Below, piece by piece: positions 1,840-60,404 of a stretch of 64,000 bases of DNA (positions are counted from its first letter, which is position 1; each line of letters starts with the position of its first letter). This DNA comes from Candidatus Magasanikbacteria bacterium GW2011_GWA2_56_11. GTDB taxonomy: Bacteria; Patescibacteriota; Patescibacteriia; Magasanikbacterales; UBA922. The translations under genes were made by a program, and so were the position numbers. The DNA lies in NCBI GenBank assembly GCA_001004885.1, contig LCRX01000004.1, positions 11,178 through 75,177 of the forward strand, in the 5' to 3' direction. A model generated the notes under the pieces. The model saw only the letters and a program-made list of their open reading frames with translations, searched no databases and was not told where the DNA came from.

Positions 1840-1991
1840 GGGACTCCTTTTCCAGCGCCTGGGCTGGTTTAAACATATTAAGCTAGGTTTATATTTTCGT
1901 CAAATTGGCGCTTAGTTTGCAAGCGTTAAAAAAGGGCTTTGTACACACCAGTTTACATCACGTACGGCTTTCTCTATACTTTAAGATATAG

Positions 1992-2154
1992 AAAACTCAC
2001 AGCGGGTCCCCCCCCCCCCTTTTTCGCCTCAACGTATCCTTATTTTCGCGGCACCAAAACTCGCTCTTGTGGGGTAAGACATTGGTGCCGCGAAAATCAG
2101 GATACGTTTCGGCCAAAATTAGAAGATAATTGCTAATAGCTCACTATTCAGTTT
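1992..2154 (+). repeat. Copy A of the ~155-nt nested-palindrome MITE/REP-like intergenic element (diverged copy with compensatory stem changes)
   Basis: Aligns to copies at 8682-8836(-), 19255-19410, 24559-24714, 32525-32680 and 59350-59447. Termini are GAACTCACAGCG... and ...AACTCACTATTCAGTT. Confidence 0.85.
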
Positions 2155-8675: not shown

Positions 8676-8681
8676 ACAACG

Positions 8682-8836
8682 AACTGGTAGCGAGTTATCA
8701 GCAATTCTATCCTAAGTCGAGCCGAAACAGAGACTGATTTTTACGGCACCAATGTCTGAGCCTGTAAGAGCGAGTTTTGGTGCCGTGAAAATCAGTCTCT
8801 GTTTGAGGCGAAAAGGGAGAAACTCGCTGTGAGTTC
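8682..8836 (-). repeat. Copy B (reverse orientation) of the MITE/REP-like element, between livJ and livH
   Basis: The reverse complement aligns full-length to copies C and E. It is co-oriented with the minus-strand liv operon. Confidence 0.85.
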
Positions 8837-18619: not shown

Positions 18620-19384
18620 ATGCTCACCCCGCACGAGGCCACCAACCGGCGTATCTTCAGCCGCGTAGCGAAGCGCTATGATTCCCCGCTTGCCCGCCGG
18701 GTATATTTCGGGCGGCTCTACCGCCATCTTTTGAAAATACTTGAACGCGAGGCCGGCACTACTCTCGGCGGCGCACGCGTACTGGATGTTGCCTGCGGCA
18801 CTGGCGAGATAATAAACAACCTGGCCCGGCGCTTTTCGGGTTCTGCCTACACCGGCCTCGATATTACCCCGGCGATGCTCGAGCGGGCAAAAAAGAAAAC
18901 CGCCGGCCTGGCCAACGTATCTTTTGTCGAGGCAACCGTGGATGAATTGCCGTTTTTGGACGGTGCGTTTGACTTGGTAATCTGTTCTGAAGCCTTTCAT
19001 CACTTCTCCGATCCAGGCCGGGCTCTAAGCGAAATGCGCCGCGTACTCTCGCTCCGGGGCAGACTGTTATTGGTTGATCCGGCGTTCAACCGGCCGTGGA
19101 TAAGGCGCCTGGCCAATAAATTTTTACCGCGCCTGGAGCACGCCCACGCCGTCTACAGTACAGGGGAATTAGCCGGGTTGATGGAAAATTACGGATTTAC
19201 GGTCGAGTTTCGTTCGACATACGCCCTGAATAGCTTTATACTGGGGGCCAAAAAGAACTCACAGCGAGTTTCCCCCCTTTCGCCTCAAACAGAGACTGAT
19301 TTTCACGGCCCCAAAACTCGCTCTTACAGGCTCAGACATTGGTGCCGTAAAAATCAGTCTCTGTTTCGGCTCGACTTAGGATAG
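18620..19384 (+). CDS. Class I SAM-dependent methyltransferase (Methyltransf_11); last ~40 codons are read through repeat copy C
   Basis: SAM motif VLDVACGTGEII plus LPFLDGAFDLVICSEAFHHF. The C-terminal NSQRVSPLSPQTETDFHGPKTRSYRLRHWCRKNQ is encoded by the repeat. Confidence 0.75.
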   Translation: MLTPHEATNRRIFSRVAKRYDSPLARRVYFGRLYRHLLKILEREAGTTLGGARVLDVACGTGEIINNLARRFSGSAYTGLDITPAMLERAKKKTAGLANVSFVEATVDELPFLDGAFDLVICSEAFHHFSDPGRALSEMRRVLSLRGRLLLVDPAFNRPWIRRLANKFLPRLEHAHAVYSTGELAGLMENYGFTVEFRSTYALNSFILGAKKNSQRVSPLSPQTETDFHGPKTRSYRLRHWCRKNQSLFRLDLG

Positions 19385-19410
19385 AATTGCTAGTAACTCA
19401 CTACCAGTTC
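19255..19410 (+). repeat. Copy C of the MITE/REP-like element
   Basis: Full-length alignment to copies D, E and B. Confidence 0.85.
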
Positions 19411-22418: not shown

Positions 22419-24560
22419 ATGCGCGATCTGCTTAAAATCCACTTTGGCTACGATGAGTTCCGTCCTTTGCAAGAGGATGTCATCAAGACCGTCCTCGGAC
22501 GCCGGGACGCGCTGGTGCTTATGCCCACGGGTGGCGGTAAATCACTTTGTTACCAGCTGCCCGCGCTACAGTTTTCTGGCATAACTCTAGTGGTCTCACC
22601 GCTCATCGCGCTCATGAAGGACCAGGTTGACGCGCTTCAGGCCAACGGCATCGCCGCGGCCTGCCTCACCAGCACGCTCGCGCCCGAAGAATTACGTGTT
22701 CGGGAACGACAGATAGCCGCCGGGGAGATAAAAATCGTGTATCTCGCCCCGGAGCGGCTGGCCATGCCAGGTTTCCGGCAATTTGTCCGCACGCTGCCCG
22801 TGGATTTTATTGCCGTGGATGAGGCGCACTGCATCTCGGAGTGGGGGCATGACTTCCGCCCGGAGTACCGCAAACTTCAGGGTCTCCGGGCGGATTTCCC
22901 CCGCTCTCCGGTCGTCGCGCTCACCGCGACCGCGACGAAGCAAGTGAGGGAGGATATAGTCCGGGAGCTGAGATTAAAGGAGCCGCGGATTTTTGTCTCC
23001 AGCTTCAACCGGCCGAACCTGACCTACCGGGTGGAACCAAAAGACAAAACTTTCGATCGGTTAGCGCGGATTTTGGATCAATATCGCGGCGAGTCGGCTC
23101 TGGTTTATTGCTTTTCGCGCCGCGACACGGAAACACTCTCCCGCGATTTGACCGCTGCCGGGTTCTCGGCCCTGCCGTATCACGCCGGTTTGGACCCGAA
23201 GACGCGCGGGGAGACGCAGGAAAAGTTTATCCGCGACGAAATTCCGCTAGTCGTCGCGACGATTGCCTTTGGCATGGGCATTGATAAACCAAACGTCCGG
23301 CTGGTGGTGCATTATCATCTGCCCAAAAGCATTGAAGGGTATTACCAGGAGACCGGCCGCGCCGGCCGCGACGGCTTGCCGAGCGAGTGCGTGCTGTTCT
23401 ACTCGCCGGCGGATTGCGAAAAGCACCGCTATTTTATCGCCGAGATCGGCGACCCGGCGGAGCGCGCGCGCTCCGAGAGAAAACTGGCGGAGATGGTGCG
23501 GTTTGCCGAGCTGACCGCATGTCGCCGCGCGTTTTTACTCCGGTATTTCGGCGAGACGGACGCTGCAAATTCCTGCGGCGCTTGCGACCGGTGTCTGACG
23601 CCGCGGGAAACATTTGACGGCACATTGGCCACGCAGAAGATACTGTCGGCTGTTATCCGAACCGGCGAACATTATGGCGCGAGTTATATTACGGACGTTT
23701 TGCGCGGTTCCCGAAGCGCGGATATTTCCGCCCGCGGGCATGACCGGCTGGGGGTTTTTGGTTTGTTTTCGGACACGAGCAAGCCGGAGTTGCGCGATTA
23801 CATGGCGCAGCTCACAGCTGCCGGCTATCTGGGCAAAGAGGCCGGCAGGTACCCGACGCTTTTTGTTACTGCCGCCGGCAAACGCTGGCTCAGGGATCGC
23901 GGAACAGTCAGCTTGACGCGCCCTTGCGAACCGGACGAGCCTGCCGCCGGCAGGCACAGCGACTTGCCCTACGAGGTCGAACTTTTTGCTTCTCTTAGGG
24001 ACTTACGTAAACATTGCGCCCAGAAAGAAAACGTGCCGCCGTTTGTAATTTTTGGCGATCGCACTCTAATCGAGATGGCTTACTACTTGCCGGACTCGCT
24101 CTCTGGCCTGCGGGCGATTACCGGCGTGGGCGAGGCAAAGCTTGAACGCTATGGGCAGATATTTTTGCGCGAGATAACTGCCTATGCCCAGGCGCGCGCC
24201 CTTGGCGCCCGGGAACGGCCGCGGCGCCACCGCCCCGAGACTGTCCGGGCCACTTCGACGTATCTGGCCACCAGGGACCTGGTCGCCCGGCAGCTGCCGC
24301 TCTCTGCCATTGCCTCAGCCAGGGAATTGGCCCCGGAAACTATCGTGGGCCATTTGGAAAAATTGTTGGCCTCCGGCGAGGCGCTCGATATAGAATACCT
24401 CAAGCCGCCGCCGGAGAGGTTTGCCGCCATCGAGGCGGCTTTCCGCCGGAGCGGGCAGCCCTGGCTAACGCCGGTGCGGCGTCTTTTGCCGGAGGAATAC
24501 AGCTACCTTGAGCTGCGATTGGCTCGGCTGTGGCTGCGTGATATACTCGATTCCGAATGA
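22419..24560 (+). CDS. recQ: ATP-dependent DNA helicase RecQ (helicase + RQC + HRDC)
   Basis: LVLMPTGGGKSLCYQLPAL, DEAHCISEWGHDFRPEY, the Zn-binding CxxC...CxxC and a C-terminal HRDC domain. Confidence 0.9.
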   Translation: MRDLLKIHFGYDEFRPLQEDVIKTVLGRRDALVLMPTGGGKSLCYQLPALQFSGITLVVSPLIALMKDQVDALQANGIAAACLTSTLAPEELRVRERQIAAGEIKIVYLAPERLAMPGFRQFVRTLPVDFIAVDEAHCISEWGHDFRPEYRKLQGLRADFPRSPVVALTATATKQVREDIVRELRLKEPRIFVSSFNRPNLTYRVEPKDKTFDRLARILDQYRGESALVYCFSRRDTETLSRDLTAAGFSALPYHAGLDPKTRGETQEKFIRDEIPLVVATIAFGMGIDKPNVRLVVHYHLPKSIEGYYQETGRAGRDGLPSECVLFYSPADCEKHRYFIAEIGDPAERARSERKLAEMVRFAELTACRRAFLLRYFGETDAANSCGACDRCLTPRETFDGTLATQKILSAVIRTGEHYGASYITDVLRGSRSADISARGHDRLGVFGLFSDTSKPELRDYMAQLTAAGYLGKEAGRYPTLFVTAAGKRWLRDRGTVSLTRPCEPDEPAAGRHSDLPYEVELFASLRDLRKHCAQKENVPPFVIFGDRTLIEMAYYLPDSLSGLRAITGVGEAKLERYGQIFLREITAYAQARALGARERPRRHRPETVRATSTYLATRDLVARQLPLSAIASARELAPETIVGHLEKLLASGEALDIEYLKPPPERFAAIEAAFRRSGQPWLTPVRRLLPEEYSYLELRLARLWLRDILDSE

Positions 24561-24714
24561 ACTCACAGCGAGTTTCTCTCCTTTCGCCTCAAACATAGAC
24601 CGATTTTCACGGCACCAAGACTCGCTCTTGTGGGCTCAGACATCGGGGCCGCGAAAATCAGTCTATGTTTCGGCTCAACTTAGGGTAGAATTGCTGATAA
24701 CTCACTATCAGTTC
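24559..24714 (+). repeat. Copy D of the MITE/REP-like element (starts at the recQ stop codon)
   Basis: Full-length alignment to the other copies. Confidence 0.85.
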
Positions 24715-28116: not shown

Positions 28117-28590
28117 ATGTCTATATTCGAGCCAGAAAGGGAAGCCGGCCAGCGCTCGCGCGAGGCCGCGGAGATGGCCGCCGAGCAGCGCGAGTCCAAA
28201 GAGGGCGAGCCGGACGAGGAGTTGAAGGCCGCCGCGGCGATGGAGCGGGCGGATTATCTGGTGCGCGAGGTGAAAAGCAGCCAGACACAGATGCAAAATA
28301 TTATTCTGCACATGCAGCAGGTGCTCGCGGCCATCCGGGCGCTGCGCGACGAGCTGCAGCTCTCGCCCGAAGATGATCCGGCGTCGGTGTCCCAGGACCG
28401 GGCGCGGGTGGAAGCGCTCAAAAAGCGCATTGCCGCCTATACCGACGAACTGCTAAAAATGAAAGGGGAACTGATACGCGAACAGGCCGAGGTGCTGCGC
28501 GCCGGGGAGGGGCAGACAATGAGCGGCCAGATGTTAAAGCAGAAAGCAGAGGCCATGGTAGAGGAATTGTTGGCCGAAATCCAAAGTTAG
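28117..28590 (+). CDS. Coiled-coil hypothetical protein (first gene of the long plus-strand pilin cluster)
   Basis: Acidic, helical ORF. The track start at 28078 lies upstream of the candidate -10 element. Confidence 0.45.
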   Translation: MSIFEPEREAGQRSREAAEMAAEQRESKEGEPDEELKAAAAMERADYLVREVKSSQTQMQNIILHMQQVLAAIRALRDELQLSPEDDPASVSQDRARVEALKKRIAAYTDELLKMKGELIREQAEVLRAGEGQTMSGQMLKQKAEAMVEELLAEIQS

Positions 28591-32463: not shown

Positions 32464-32524
32464 AAACCGGGATAAGAGCCGGGCTTTTTCCCGCCGGTGT
32501 TCTCTGGTATAATACTTTCAGCTA

Positions 32525-32680
32525 GAACTCACAGCGAGTTTCCCCCTTTTCGCCTCAAACATAGACTGATTTTCACGGCGCCAAAACTCGCTCTTGTGGG
32601 CTCAGACATTGGTGCCGCGAAAATCAGTCTCTGTTTCGGCTCGACTTAGGAGAGAATTGCTAACAACTCACTATCAGTTC
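32525..32680 (+). repeat. Copy E of the MITE/REP-like element (reference copy)
   Basis: GAACTCACAGCGAGTTT...CGCCTCAAACATAGACTGATTTTCACGGCGCCAA...TTGGTGCCGCGAAAATCAGTCTCTGTTTCGG...AACTCACTATCAGTTC. Confidence 0.85.
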
Positions 32681-32698: not shown

Positions 32699-33571
32699 AT
32701 GCCGACACCAAAAGTGAAGAAAGGAGTCATAACCGTCGCCGGACTCGGCACCAGATTTTTGCCGGCCACCAAGGCCATGCCCAAGGAAATGCTCCCGGTT
32801 TTGGACAAGCCGGTGGTGCAGTACATAGTGGAGGAAATGGCCCAAAGCGGGATTACCGAAATTATTTTTGTTACCAGCTCCCAAAAACGCCCGATCGAGG
32901 ATCATTTCGACCGCGACGGCGATTTTGAGCGCTACCTAAAGGAAAAGGGCAAATCAGACCGGATTCAGCCCCTGGTCGAGCTGTCCGAGCGGGTGCGGTT
33001 TTTTTATACCCGCCAGAGCGCCCCTTTGGGCAACGGCCACGCGCTTTTGTGCGCCCGGGAATTCATCGGCAGCGAGCCGTTCGCTTTCTCGGACGGCGAC
33101 AGTATTATTGACTCCAAAACTCCGGTTACGAAACAGCTGCTCAAGGTATTCTACCGGGTGCGTTCGTCCGTCATTGGGGTGCAGCGCATTGACGATCGCG
33201 CGGCCATGACCAAATACGGGAACGTGTACGGCAAGCGCACGCGCGAGCCGCGCACTTACCGGGTGAGCGAGTTTCGGGAAAAACCTCCGGTCGAGGCAAC
33301 CTCCCCGGAAGGGCTGATAGTCGGCGGTATGCGGTATATATTCACCAAAGACATCTGGCCCATCCTAGAGGGACAGTCCCGGGGCAAAGACAATGAAATT
33401 TGGGTGGCGGATGCGGCCAATGCCCTGGCCAAACGCCGGTCATTTTACGCCTACGAGTACGAGGGCATCTATTTTGACACGGGCGACAAAGTGGCGCTCC
33501 TGAAAACGGCGCTGCACTTTGCTTTCAAGGATCCGGCTATTGCCCTCGAAATCAAAAAATTAGTGCAGTAG
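32699..33571 (+). CDS. galU: UTP--glucose-1-phosphate uridylyltransferase
   Basis: GVITVAGLGTRFLPATKAMPKEMLPV and VQYIVEEM are GalU motifs. The track ORF start at 32594 is inside the repeat; the ATG at 32699 is used. Confidence 0.85.
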   Translation: MPTPKVKKGVITVAGLGTRFLPATKAMPKEMLPVLDKPVVQYIVEEMAQSGITEIIFVTSSQKRPIEDHFDRDGDFERYLKEKGKSDRIQPLVELSERVRFFYTRQSAPLGNGHALLCAREFIGSEPFAFSDGDSIIDSKTPVTKQLLKVFYRVRSSVIGVQRIDDRAAMTKYGNVYGKRTREPRTYRVSEFREKPPVEATSPEGLIVGGMRYIFTKDIWPILEGQSRGKDNEIWVADAANALAKRRSFYAYEYEGIYFDTGDKVALLKTALHFAFKDPAIALEIKKLVQ

Positions 33572-59349: not shown

Positions 59350-59447
59350 GAACTCACAGTGAGTTCCCCCCTTTCGCCTCAAACATAGACTGGTTTTCAC
59401 GGCCCCAAAACTCGCTCTTACAGGCTCAGACATTGGTGCCGTAAAAA
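59350..59447 (+). repeat. Copy F of the MITE/REP-like element, 3'-truncated
   Basis: The first ~98 nt align to the other copies. Homology is lost after GTAAAAAT. Confidence 0.75.
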
Positions 59448-60404
59448 TGGGGTGATCTTGGGGTGCCGGGCTATCATTCGGCGCACGTCTTTTTCGGTGA
59501 GGAGGCCGGTTTGCGCCCCCCACTGTTGGATAACGCCGCCGGCATTGGCTGTGCCCCACTGCATGGCTTCGGGGAGGGAAGACCCAGACATGTAGGCGCG
59601 CAGAAAACCGCTGGCGTAGGCGTCGCCGGCACCGGTTTTGGAAACCACCTTAACAGGGTAGCTGGGCAGGAAATAAAGGTCGTCTCCTTGGGAGGCGAAT
59701 GAGCCGCGGACGCTGTCGGTAACGACAACAGTTTTGGGTCCGAGACGGCGCACCGCGGCGCACAGGGCGCGCATAGTCCTTTTTTCGCCGGCGAGACGCT
59801 CCGCTTCTTGTTTGTTAACAATCAGAAGATCGGTCAGAGGCAGAATTTTGGCGAATTCCTCCCGGCCTTTTTTGAGCTGGTATGATCCCGGATTCACGGC
59901 CAGCTTGAGCGTGCGGTGCCGCTTTAGATACGCGGCGAGCCGTGCCTGGAGGCGTTCGAAAGATTCGCCGAGCGATGTGTAGTACAGCCACCGCGCTGCC
60001 GGCAGAGCCGGCAGGCGATAACGGCGGGCGGCATGATAGGCCAGAATGGTACGTTCTCCGCGGTAGCTCAGGACAATCGAGTAACGCGTGGTCGCGCGCG
60101 GCTGCAAAGAGACGAGGCCGGTGTCAACCCCGGCCTCTTGCAGAGCGTCGTGTATGGCGTAGCCGTTCAAGTCGTCGCCAAGCTGGGTTACAATCGCGGC
60201 GGCCAGGCCCAGCCGGCTCGCTCCGGCCGCCACATTGGCCGCGTTGCCGCCGACCGATTGCGCGGTTTCTTTGATGGGGATTTTTTCCGCGTAGTCCAAA
60301 CAGAGCTGGCAGTGTTCGCGGCGCACGTCGCACTGGAGCGTGGCGTCGTCCACGATGAGGAAAGTGTCCAAGGTGGCGTCGCCAATGGTGATAAGGTCGA
60401 ACAT
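59418..60404 (-). CDS. PfkB-family carbohydrate kinase (ribokinase-like)
   Basis: C-terminal TGAGDAYASGFL motif and N-terminal GG motif SVGGNAANVA. The last ~10 codons overlap repeat copy F. Confidence 0.75.
   Translation of the reverse strand: MFDLITIGDATLDTFLIVDDATLQCDVRREHCQLCLDYAEKIPIKETAQSVGGNAANVAAGASRLGLAAAIVTQLGDDLNGYAIHDALQEAGVDTGLVSLQPRATTRYSIVLSYRGERTILAYHAARRYRLPALPAARWLYYTSLGESFERLQARLAAYLKRHRTLKLAVNPGSYQLKKGREEFAKILPLTDLLIVNKQEAERLAGEKRTMRALCAAVRRLGPKTVVVTDSVRGSFASQGDDLYFLPSYPVKVVSKTGAGDAYASGFLRAYMSGSSLPEAMQWGTANAGGVIQQWGAQTGLLTEKDVRRMIARHPKITPFLRHQCLSL

What the first reader, a model, noticed from the sequence alone, without database searches (positions are those of the whole stretch)
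1992..2154. Diverged repeat copy A preserves the long hairpin through compensatory substitutions
In copy A the internal arms read AACGTATCCTTATTTTCGCGGCACCAA and TTGGTGCCGCGAAAATCAGGATACGTT. The other copies have AAACATAGACTGATTTTCACGGCGCCAA / TTGGTGCCGCGAAAATCAGTCTCTGTTTCGG. Both arms changed (ACATAGACT to ACGTATCCT on the left, AGTCTCTGT to AGGATACGT on the right), so pairing is maintained, and is in fact better than in the canonical copies. This is the signature of selection on secondary structure, or of palindrome-directed repair.
Basis: seen in the sequence. Interest (0 to 1): 0.55.

Follow-up and report, generated by a model that had tools for sequence, protein, structure and literature searches.

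The report
Promoter-hugging mini-transposon with self-correcting hairpin
The "diverged repeat copy" is one of at least 17 copies of a 156-base non-coding mobile element in a groundwater Candidate Phyla Radiation bacterium. Its hairpin arms probably stay complementary through DNA copying errors that mirror one arm onto the other, and almost every copy sits just after a promoter, pointing at the next gene.

Summary
In copy A (1993-2154), three base pairs of a 28-bp hairpin changed on both arms and still pair (chance about 2e-4).

[quoted passage not shown] It is 156 nt long, has imperfect 16-nt terminal inverted repeats, 3-bp target-site duplications (perfect in 8 of 16 loci, p about 1e-5) and no gene. 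There are six copies in the window and 17 independent loci in all. Rfam has no match.

Across the family the arms do not covary in the way a structured RNA does. Seven private stem changes outside copy A are unmirrored, two or three hot positions vary independently, and the RNAalifold covariation term is about zero. One copy has a mirrored 2-nt insertion in both arms and another has its loop inverted. Both are hallmarks of DNA template switching within palindromes. I therefore favour palindrome-directed repair over selection on RNA structure.

An unexpected extra finding is where the element sits. In 14 of 17 loci its first base lies 10-13 nt downstream of a sigma-70 -10 hexamer. Every full-length copy with a readable downstream flank points at the next gene, so it forms that gene's 5' leader in a genome that is almost free of Shine-Dalgarno sites and has short leaders.

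The parts
1993..2154 (+). MITE copy A, the most diverged copy (about 75% identical to the others). It forms the 5' leader of a T4SS-type pilin gene (ATG at 2170).
   Evidence: nhmmer 150.5 bits; identities; Pfam of downstream gene
2030..2057 (+). Copy A, left arm of the 28-bp hairpin. The changed block ACGTATCC is at 2032-2039.
2082..2109 (+). Copy A, right arm of the hairpin. The mirrored block GGATACGT is at 2100-2107.
1952..1980 (+). Sigma-70-type promoter upstream of copy A: TTTACA, 17 nt, TATACT. The -10 hexamer ends 12 nt before the element.
8681..8836 (-). MITE copy B, between a LivK-like binding-protein gene and a LivH-like permease gene (ATG 5 nt downstream). Perfect target-site duplication GTT. 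No -10 hexamer at the usual spacing.
19255..19410 (+). MITE copy C, with perfect target-site duplication AAA. It was inserted 7 nt before the start of the CAP-domain gene and inside the 3' end of a methyltransferase gene, whose ORF it lengthens by 40 codons.
19214..19242 (+). Promoter TCGACA, 17 nt, TATACT, ending 12 nt before copy C.
24559..24714 (+). MITE copy D. Its first bases complete the RecQ stop codon (T+GA).
24519..24547 (+). Promoter TTGGCT, 17 nt, TG-extended TATACT, ending 11 nt before copy D.
32525..32680 (+). It forms the 5' leader of galU (ATG at 32699).
32505..32513 (+). Extended -10 element TGGTATAAT, ending 11 nt before copy E.
59350..59448 (+). MITE copy F, truncated in this window after ...CCGTAAAAAT in the right arm. 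Four other assemblies carry a full-length copy here, so the window version is a 112-bp deletion variant.

Best explanation
The 163-nt feature is copy A of a family of 156-nt MITEs in Candidatus Magasanikbacteria bacterium GW2011_GWA2_56_11 (Candidate Phyla Radiation, Rifle aquifer).

Each element, from 5' to 3', has these parts:
- a 16-nt terminal inverted repeat (GAACTCACAGCGAGTT ... AACTCACTAYCAGTTC);
- a C/T-rich linker;
- a 28-bp imperfect palindrome around a conserved 24-nt loop;
- an A/T-rich spacer.

It is flanked by a 3-bp target-site duplication, often A-N-T, and encodes nothing. It would be moved in trans by a transposase that has not been found (inferred).

I propose that the hairpin arms stay complementary mainly at the DNA level. 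During replication or repair the nascent strand briefly uses the other arm as template (template switching, or quasipalindrome correction). This copies a patch of changes from one arm onto the other in mirror image. In copy A, one such event covering stem positions about 2-11 would explain the three clustered compensated pairs. The same process explains the mirrored 2-nt insertion in L025, the perfected GCCG/CGGC stem base in three copies, and the inverted loop in one copy.

What is shown: the repeat family, the terminal repeats, the target-site duplications, the non-random mirrored changes, the loop flip and the mirrored indel.

What is inferred: that template switching, rather than selection, produced them, and that the element moves by a DDE-type cut or copy mechanism.

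The element is also a transcribed 5' leader in most loci. It starts 10-13 nt after a -10 hexamer and points at the downstream gene. RNA-level effects of the 28-bp duplex are therefore likely, for example RNase III cleavage or leader stability, but they are untested.

The confidence of 0.58 is for the whole statement. Identity as a MITE alone is about 0.9. Template switching as the main cause of the compensated changes is about 0.55-0.6.
For: MITE identity:
- Six copies in the window and 13 more in metagenome contigs, giving 17 independent loci.
- The terminal repeats match at 13 of 16 positions.
- The 3-bp flanking repeats are perfect in 8 of 16 loci; only 2 of 200,000 permutations reach that number.
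- No reading frame is conserved. The internal TTG frame is in frame with the downstream gene in 5 of 15 copies, which is what chance predicts.
- Removing the element plus one duplication copy restores sensible gene ends. The methyltransferase stop then overlaps the CAP-gene ATG as ATGA, and RecQ ends two codons later.
- Rfam has no match.

Arm co-evolution:
- 7 pairs carry double changes, which 0 of 500 shuffles reach. The covariation score is 0.090 against 0.060 +/- 0.008.
- Copy A has three mirrored changes within 5 bp.

DNA-level mechanism:
- The L025 arms read ATACAGAC / GTCTGTAT against ATAGAC / GTCTAT in the other copies, a mirrored 2-nt insertion.
- The loop of the copy at L021 8984-9137 matches the reverse complement of the consensus loop at 21 of 24 positions.
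- Arm homogenisation, spacer inversion and multibase compensatory changes are the documented outcomes of template switching (PMC8604942; PMC8794818).

Against RNA-type selection:
- Private stem changes outside copy A are never compensated, 0 of 7.
- Wobble pairs are not enriched.
- The arms are no better conserved than the other parts of the element.
- The RNAalifold covariation term is about 0.
Against: - Template switching only copies changes. It does not explain where the three original substitutions in one arm of copy A came from, and no donor for ACGTATCC was found nearby.
- Copy A is old (about 25% diverged in every region) yet keeps 26 of 28 pairs. This is also what long-term selection for a hairpin would give.
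- The events are few: roughly four independent ones in 16 sequences. The copies are related by descent, so the shuffle statistics overstate significance.
- No empty site and no autonomous transposase were found, so mobility is inferred from the duplications and not observed.
Confidence: 0.58

Rival explanations
1. Selection on RNA secondary structure. The element is a functional 5' leader, and its long hairpin is needed in the mRNA, for example as an RNase III site, a stability determinant or a protein-binding platform. Mutations that break pairs would then be selected against, and compensatory mutations would be fixed.
For: The element lies in the predicted 5' UTR in 14 of 17 loci, and every full-length copy with a readable downstream flank points at the downstream gene. 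Copy A has diverged about 25% in sequence but keeps 26 of 28 pairs. The fold is far more stable than shuffled sequence, z = -6. The loop is the best-conserved region, 92%.
Against: The RNAalifold covariation term is about 0. None of 7 private stem changes outside copy A is compensated. Positions 18, 19 and 24 vary freely, with many A-C and pyrimidine-pyrimidine mismatches and no excess of G-U. One copy has the loop inverted and still occupies a normal promoter-proximal site. A mirrored 2-nt insertion is very unlikely to arise by stepwise selection. The downstream genes are functionally unrelated. The opposite strand folds 5-17 kcal/mol better in all 16 full-length copies folded.
Confidence: 0.25
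2. The two arms are inverted binding sites for one protein, either the transposase or a host factor. Both arms would then track the protein's specificity as double-stranded DNA, and no hairpin ever needs to form.
For: Inverted repeats in mobile elements commonly co-evolve with their transposase (general knowledge of insertion sequences). Both arms changed in the same 5-bp block in copy A.
Against: Only a single copy carries the variant block. A change in protein specificity should affect a whole subfamily. No A-like copy exists among 17 loci, and no transposase was found. This model does not explain the loop inversion.
Confidence: 0.08
3. Coincidence. Copy A's arm changes are independent mutations that happen to be complementary.
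For: Only one copy shows the three-pair block.
Against: The probability is about 2e-4 given 6 left-arm and 3 right-arm changes in 28 positions (counts). Other mirrored events occur in the family.
Confidence: 0.01
4. The repeat is a conserved cis-regulatory RNA (riboswitch or leader) or a multi-copy small RNA gene, not a mobile element.
For: A promoter lies immediately upstream. The fold is structured. The orientation is conserved.
Against: The element has 3-bp target-site duplications and terminal inverted repeats. Identity among copies is about 89% over every region while the flanks cannot be aligned. There is no terminator, since the start codon lies 0-21 nt downstream in most copies. The downstream genes are unrelated. 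Rfam has no family for it, and no copy occurs in any of 185,579 species-representative genomes.
Confidence: 0.05

Closest known systems
Bacterial MITEs that are co-transcribed with neighbouring genes, especially Neisseria Correia elements (CREE) and enterobacterial ERIC elements
   Same: They are small (100-160 bp), non-coding, have terminal inverted repeats, short target-site duplications and many copies in intergenic DNA. They are transcribed as part of mRNAs, where a long duplex can be cut by RNase III or alter stability (review PMC10969869).
   Different: Correia and ERIC elements duplicate TA, and their hairpin is formed by the terminal repeats themselves. Here the duplication is 3 bp (often A-N-T), and the 28-bp hairpin is an internal palindrome distinct from the 16-nt terminal repeats. 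No reviewed MITE is reported to sit at a fixed 10-13 nt from a -10 hexamer in one orientation. There is no sequence similarity to any known family.
Template-switch (quasipalindrome) mutation in inverted repeats (Ripley model; PMC8604942, PMC8794818, PMC7202029)
   Same: It produces multinucleotide changes mirrored between arms, perfects imperfect palindromes, and inverts the spacer. All three outcomes are seen in this family.
   Different: Those studies concern short inverted repeats in genes, or rRNA stems. Here the substrate is the 28-bp core of a dispersed mobile element. The process is inferred from comparing copies, not from a reconstructed phylogeny or an experiment.
Mycobacterial MIRUs and other orientation-biased intergenic repeats within operons
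   Same: The orientation is fixed relative to transcription, the repeat lies immediately next to start or stop codons, and it overlaps the ends of ORFs.
   Different: MIRUs are tandem direct repeats without terminal inverted repeats or target-site duplications (my knowledge, not tested here).
Yeast Ty3, which integrates at Pol III transcription start sites
   Same: It is only a conceptual analogue. Its insertion position is tied to the transcription start by the transcription machinery.
   Different: Ty3 is a eukaryotic LTR retrotransposon. No such tethering has been shown for this element.

Membership tests
MITE (non-autonomous DNA transposon) | Small size and no coding capacity | tested here: met
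   The element is 154-162 nt. The only recurrent frame (TTG...) is 8-13 codons long unless it runs into the next gene, and it is in frame in 5 of 15 copies, which is the chance rate.
MITE (non-autonomous DNA transposon) | Terminal inverted repeats | tested here: met
   The first and last 16 nt are complementary at 10-13 of 16 positions in all 15 full copies. The mismatches are mostly transitions.
MITE (non-autonomous DNA transposon) | Target-site duplication of fixed length | tested here: met
   A 3-bp direct repeat abuts both ends. It is perfect in 8 of 16 loci and matches at 2 of 3 positions in 6 more. Permutation gives p about 1e-5.
MITE (non-autonomous DNA transposon) | Multiple dispersed copies with unrelated flanks | tested here: met
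   There are 17 independent loci, and the flanks cannot be aligned.
MITE (non-autonomous DNA transposon) | Presence/absence polymorphism (empty sites) | tested here: inconclusive
   Every alternative assembly of loci A, B, C, E and F carries the element. Only in-silico reconstruction of the empty sites was possible.
MITE (non-autonomous DNA transposon) | A cognate autonomous insertion sequence with the same terminal repeats | tested here: not met
   No extra terminal-repeat matches exist in the window or in 38 loci. The precomputed Pfam lists for the neighbouring genes show no transposase. Most of the genome could not be searched.
Structured cis-regulatory RNA or small RNA family | Base-pair covariation across many independent sequences | tested here: not met
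   The RNAalifold covariation term is +0.12 kcal/mol. The double changes are dominated by a single copy.
Structured cis-regulatory RNA or small RNA family | Association with functionally related genes, or a match to a curated family | tested here: not met
   The downstream genes are a pilin, a permease, a CAP protein, a nuclease, GalU, MgtE, glycosyltransferases, epimerases and others. Rfam gives no hit.
REP/BIME or IS200/IS605-derived palindromic elements | No target-site duplication, insertion next to a fixed 4-5 nt target, 20-40 nt units | tested here: not met
   Variable 3-bp duplications are present and the unit is 156 nt.
Integron attC site | RYYYAAC/GTTRRRY core sites bounding gene cassettes in an array beside an integrase | tested here: not met
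   The copies are 5-27 kb apart, among housekeeping genes, with variable flanking triplets.

The most novel reading that the evidence does not exclude
The element is a promoter-seeking MITE. Its integration would be directed, by the promoter DNA or by the RNA polymerase-sigma complex, to positions about +1 to +6 of sigma-70 promoters in a single orientation. In a genome that is almost free of Shine-Dalgarno sites and has short-leader or leaderless mRNAs, this would convert those mRNAs into mRNAs with a common 156-nt structured leader. A set of unrelated genes, many of them for the cell envelope or glycans, could then be wired to one post-transcriptional control.

The pattern itself is shown:
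- The first base lies 10-13 nt after a -10 hexamer in 14 of 17 loci.
- 8 of those 14 carry a TGn extension (p = 5e-7).
- 8 of 14 have a -35 match at 16-18 nt, against 4% in controls.
- Every full-length copy with a readable downstream flank points at the downstream gene.
- The distance to the ATG varies from 0 to about 230 nt.

What is not shown is whether targeting or selection after insertion creates the pattern.
Probability: 0.4. Interest if true: 0.75.

Novelty: new variant of a known kind. Interest (0 to 1): 0.52.

Why it matters
There are three reasons.

1. It is a clean natural example of 'compensatory' changes in a hairpin that come from a DNA copying mechanism and not from selection on RNA. 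This warns against reading covariation in repeated palindromic elements as proof of a functional RNA.

2. It documents a MITE family in a Candidate Phyla Radiation genome. I found no paper describing one in these small, compact genomes.

3. The strict placement of the element a few bases after the predicted transcription start, in one orientation, is unusual for bacterial transposons. If it reflects targeting, it would be a new mode of target-site choice. If it reflects selection, the element has been co-opted as a shared mRNA leader. Either way it is directly testable with existing Rifle metatranscriptomes and time-series metagenomes.

Tried and rejected
- Rfam at gathering and permissive thresholds gave only tRNAs and chance miRNA-like hairpin hits.
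- The scan of 185,579 species-representative genomes gave only five chance hits, so the element is lineage-restricted. The viral contig scan gave nothing.
- I tested whether AGGA-N5-TTG inside the element is a donated ribosome-binding site and start codon. Gene callers do start CAP and GalU there. However, the frame is in phase with the gene in only 5 of 15 copies, the AGGA is not conserved, and the genome uses Shine-Dalgarno sites in only 2 of 60 genes. Rejected.
- A pseudoknot between the 5' end (AGCGAGTTT) and the loop (AAACTCGCT): the complementarity is real, but nothing covaries with it and the loop-flipped copy abolishes it. It is more likely an internal partial copy of the terminal repeat. 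Left unexplained.
- Riboswitch, small RNA, REP/BIME, IS200/IS605-type element, integron attC and IS110 bridge RNA were all rejected on the target-site duplications, the terminal repeats and the genomic context.
- Empty-site search: the closest RecQ relative is only 60% identical, and all alternative assemblies of five loci contain the element. Four exact-protein look-ups found nothing.
- A search for a local donor of copy A's new block found none.
- A sensitive search for decayed relics in the window found none.
- A search for extra terminal-repeat copies, which would mark an autonomous element, found none.

Full report
**1. The observation**

The arm motif TTGGTGCCGCGAAAATCAG occurs 11 times in the window with up to 3 mismatches, against 0.03 expected. 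These matches define six copies of one repeat:
- A, 1993-2154, plus strand
- B, 8681-8836, minus strand
- C, 19255-19410, plus strand
- D, 24559-24714, plus strand
- E, 32525-32680, plus strand
- F, from 59350, plus strand, truncated

Copy A's arms lie at 2030-2057 and 2082-2109. Against the family consensus, stem positions 5, 8 and 9 changed on both arms to complementary bases: A-T to G-C, G-C to T-A and A-T to C-G. Copy A has 6 left-arm and 3 right-arm substitutions in 28 positions. The chance that all three right-arm changes mirror left-arm changes is about 2e-4. Copy A is about 75% identical to the other copies in every region, while the others are about 89% identical to each other. It nevertheless keeps 26 of 28 Watson-Crick pairs. 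The claim that A pairs better than the canonical copies is only marginally true.

**2. What the repeat is**

Rfam has nothing for it. A scan of one genome per species for the conserved loop found only chance hits. The metagenome scan found 13 more copies, mostly on contigs of one IMG genome (Ga0076004) and in Rifle aquifer metagenomes.

Exact protein look-ups place the window on a 160-kb Rifle groundwater scaffold. They also name the organism as Candidatus Magasanikbacteria bacterium GW2011_GWA2_56_11, a Candidate Phyla Radiation bacterium. Its closest RecQ relative is only 60% identical. None of the extra loci overlaps the window. Their GC content matches the window's, so they are probably other parts of the same genome or population (inference).

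Aligning all copies with their flanks shows a sharply bounded unit of 154-162 nt, from GAACTC... to ...CAGTTC:
- The first and last 16 nt are imperfect inverted repeats, matching at 10-13 of 16 positions.
- A 3-bp direct repeat of variable sequence abuts both ends. It is perfect in 8 of 16 loci (AAT, ATT, CAC, ATG, AAT, ACT, GTT, AAA; often A-N-T) and matches at 2 of 3 positions in 6 more. Only 2 of 200,000 permutations reach 8 perfect matches.
- No reading frame is conserved.

Deleting the element and one repeat copy in silico restores sensible gene ends. At C, the methyltransferase then ends ...GAKKSI*, with its TGA overlapping the ATG of the next gene (ATGA). At D, RecQ ends two codons later.

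These are the defining features of a MITE. No autonomous partner or empty site was found, so mobility is inferred and not observed. A sensitive search found no decayed relics.

**3. Do the arms covary across the family?**

On 16 sequences, the 31-pair hairpin is 92.7% paired. Seven pairs carry double changes, which none of 500 shuffles reaches. The covariation score is 0.090 against 0.060 +/- 0.008, and slid controls collapse to 30-43% pairing.

The detail matters, however:
- Three of the seven double-change pairs come from copy A alone.
- One pair (position 6, T-A or G-C) is a subfamily polymorphism with T-C intermediates.
- The others (positions 18, 19 and 24) are hot spots where both arms flip among CG, CA, TG and TA or among A, C and G with little correlation. 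Pair 65/98 is unpaired in 9 of 16 copies.
- Outside copy A, none of seven private stem substitutions is mirrored.
- Non-Watson-Crick cells are 10 G-T, 16 A-C and 20 other, so wobble pairs are not favoured.
- The arms are no better conserved than the rest of the element.
- RNAalifold assigns a covariation term of +0.12 kcal/mol.

This is not the profile of a helix under steady RNA-level selection.

**4. Evidence for a DNA-level mechanism**

Three features point to information passing directly between the arms:
- L025 carries a 2-nt insertion in the left arm (ATACAGAC against ATAGAC) and the complementary insertion at the mirror position of the right arm (GTCTGTAT against GTCTAT).
- Three copies have GCCG/CGGC at the stem base where the others have an internal loop.
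- The copy at L021 8984-9137 has its whole 24-nt loop reverse-complemented (21 of 24 matches to the inverted consensus), while the rest of the element keeps its orientation.

Arm homogenisation and spacer inversion are the two documented products of polymerase template switching between inverted-repeat arms (PMC8604942). The same process has been shown to generate multibase 'compensatory' changes in hairpins (PMC8794818).

Copy A's three compensated pairs lie within 5 bp, between uncompensated changes at positions 1 and 12. That is what one short conversion tract would give. By my count, three random pairs fall within such a span about 4.5% of the time.

I therefore favour palindrome-directed template switching, with confidence about 0.55-0.6. 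Selection on an RNA or single-stranded DNA hairpin is the main rival, at about 0.25. The mechanisms are not exclusive, because template switching supplies the variants and selection can retain them.

**5. Context: an unexpected regularity**

In 14 of 17 independent loci, a -10-like hexamer (TATAAT, TATACT or TATTAT) ends 10-13 nt before the first base of the element, most often at 12 nt. No such hexamer occurs at nearly any other offset.
- Eight of the 14 have the TGn extension (binomial p = 5e-7).
- Eight have a -35 match of at least 4 of 6 at 16-18 nt, against 4% in control spacings.
- The independent consensus scan flags the promoters before C and D.

The sequence between the -10 hexamer and the element is not conserved, and the target-site duplication lies between them. 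The promoter therefore belongs to the target and not to the element.

Every full-length copy with a readable downstream flank (14 independent loci) is followed by a co-oriented gene. All but the one after L019, which I did not scan, have Pfam matches. The genes are functionally unrelated. The gap between element and ATG ranges from 0 to about 230 nt. The position is therefore tied to the promoter, not to the start codon.

The genome itself is unusual. Only 2 of 60 genes have a Shine-Dalgarno motif, and many have their -10 hexamer only 8-15 nt before the ATG, which implies short-leader or leaderless mRNAs. In L015 the duplicated triplet is the start codon ATG itself.

The exceptions are B (inside an operon, after a terminator), F (between convergent genes) and L008 (inserted into the -10 hexamer).

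Whether integration is targeted to the promoter or open complex, or whether only such insertions survive, cannot be decided here. At D, the 'promoter' lies in the RecQ 3' end, upstream of terminator-like hairpins. That hints at targeting of promoter-like DNA and not at selection for function.

The orientation bias has a plausible selective reading. The reverse strand folds into a rod 5-17 kcal/mol more stable in all 16 full-length copies folded, because the terminal-repeat mismatches are A-C on the sense strand and G-U on the other (37 against 5 cells). A reversed copy would therefore bury the region just before a start codon that has no Shine-Dalgarno site. This is inference.

**6. Comparison and verdict**

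Functionally the element resembles co-transcribed MITEs such as Correia and ERIC elements (PMC10969869). It differs from them in three ways: a 3-bp duplication, an internal palindrome distinct from the terminal repeats, and strict promoter-proximal, single-orientation placement. A recent review of MITE insertion preferences does not report the last feature, and I did not find it in a literature search.

The feature is a new MITE family with an unusual placement rule. It is ordinary in kind and interesting in detail.

Noticed in passing
window 59350-59452 versus L031 8249-8403 and L034 874-1028: Copy F is full length in four other assemblies. In the window, 112 bp are missing: the element's 3' half, a terminator hairpin and the PfkB stop codon. 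As a result the PfkB ORF runs into the element (328 aa against 325 aa). The break is after CCGTAAAAAT in the right arm.
   Followed up: partly
L024 2943-3044 versus L022 1816-1941: This is the same locus in two samples. One copy is truncated after CCGTAAAAATC, within 1 nt of the break in copy F, and the other continues. Two independent truncations at the same point in the right arm suggest a structure-specific break, or an assembly artefact at the hairpin.
   Followed up: no
L021 8984-9137 (minus strand): The 24-nt hairpin loop is inverted relative to all other copies, matching the reverse complement of the consensus at 21 of 24 positions. The terminal repeats, the arms and the promoter context are normal.
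   Followed up: yes
window 2010-2021; L037 5820-5977: The poly-C tract in copy A is C12 in the window and C10 in another assembly. Other copies have C4-C7. This is either a hypervariable homopolymer tract or sequencing noise.
   Followed up: partly
whole window: Only 2 of 60 genes have a Shine-Dalgarno motif. Many have a -10 hexamer 8-15 nt before the ATG (for example at 28117, 57895, 56356 and 62349), which implies leaderless or very short-leader mRNAs.
   Followed up: partly
stem positions 18/19 and terminal-repeat position 11 in all copies (for example window 32574-32575 and 32618-32619): The variable sites are CpG dinucleotides that flip among CG, CA, TG and TA on both arms. This pattern is expected from deamination of methylated cytosine in CGCG.
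   Followed up: no
window 19255-19384 and 19387; window 32657: Copy C adds 40 codons to the upstream methyltransferase ORF. Public gene calls start the CAP gene (370 aa) and galU (304 aa) at a TTG inside the element, so these annotated N-termini are probably artefacts.
   Followed up: partly
L015 2092-2260: The target-site duplication is the start codon ATG. The upstream copy, 9 nt after TATAAT, now opens a roughly 46-codon reading frame running through the element.
   Followed up: no
all copies, element positions 9-17 and about 60-68: The 5' end (AGCGAGTTT) is exactly complementary to the 5' part of the hairpin loop (AAACTCGCT). This may be a potential pseudoknot or an internal third partial copy of the terminal repeat. 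Its function is unknown.
   Followed up: partly
genes downstream of the copies (window and loci L007-L025): Many of the genes that carry the element as a leader concern the cell envelope or glycans: a pilin, a CAP-domain secreted protein, GalU, a GT4 glycosyltransferase, two NAD-epimerases, a sugar transferase, and DUF11 and TSP3 surface proteins. Enrichment was not tested statistically.
   Followed up: no
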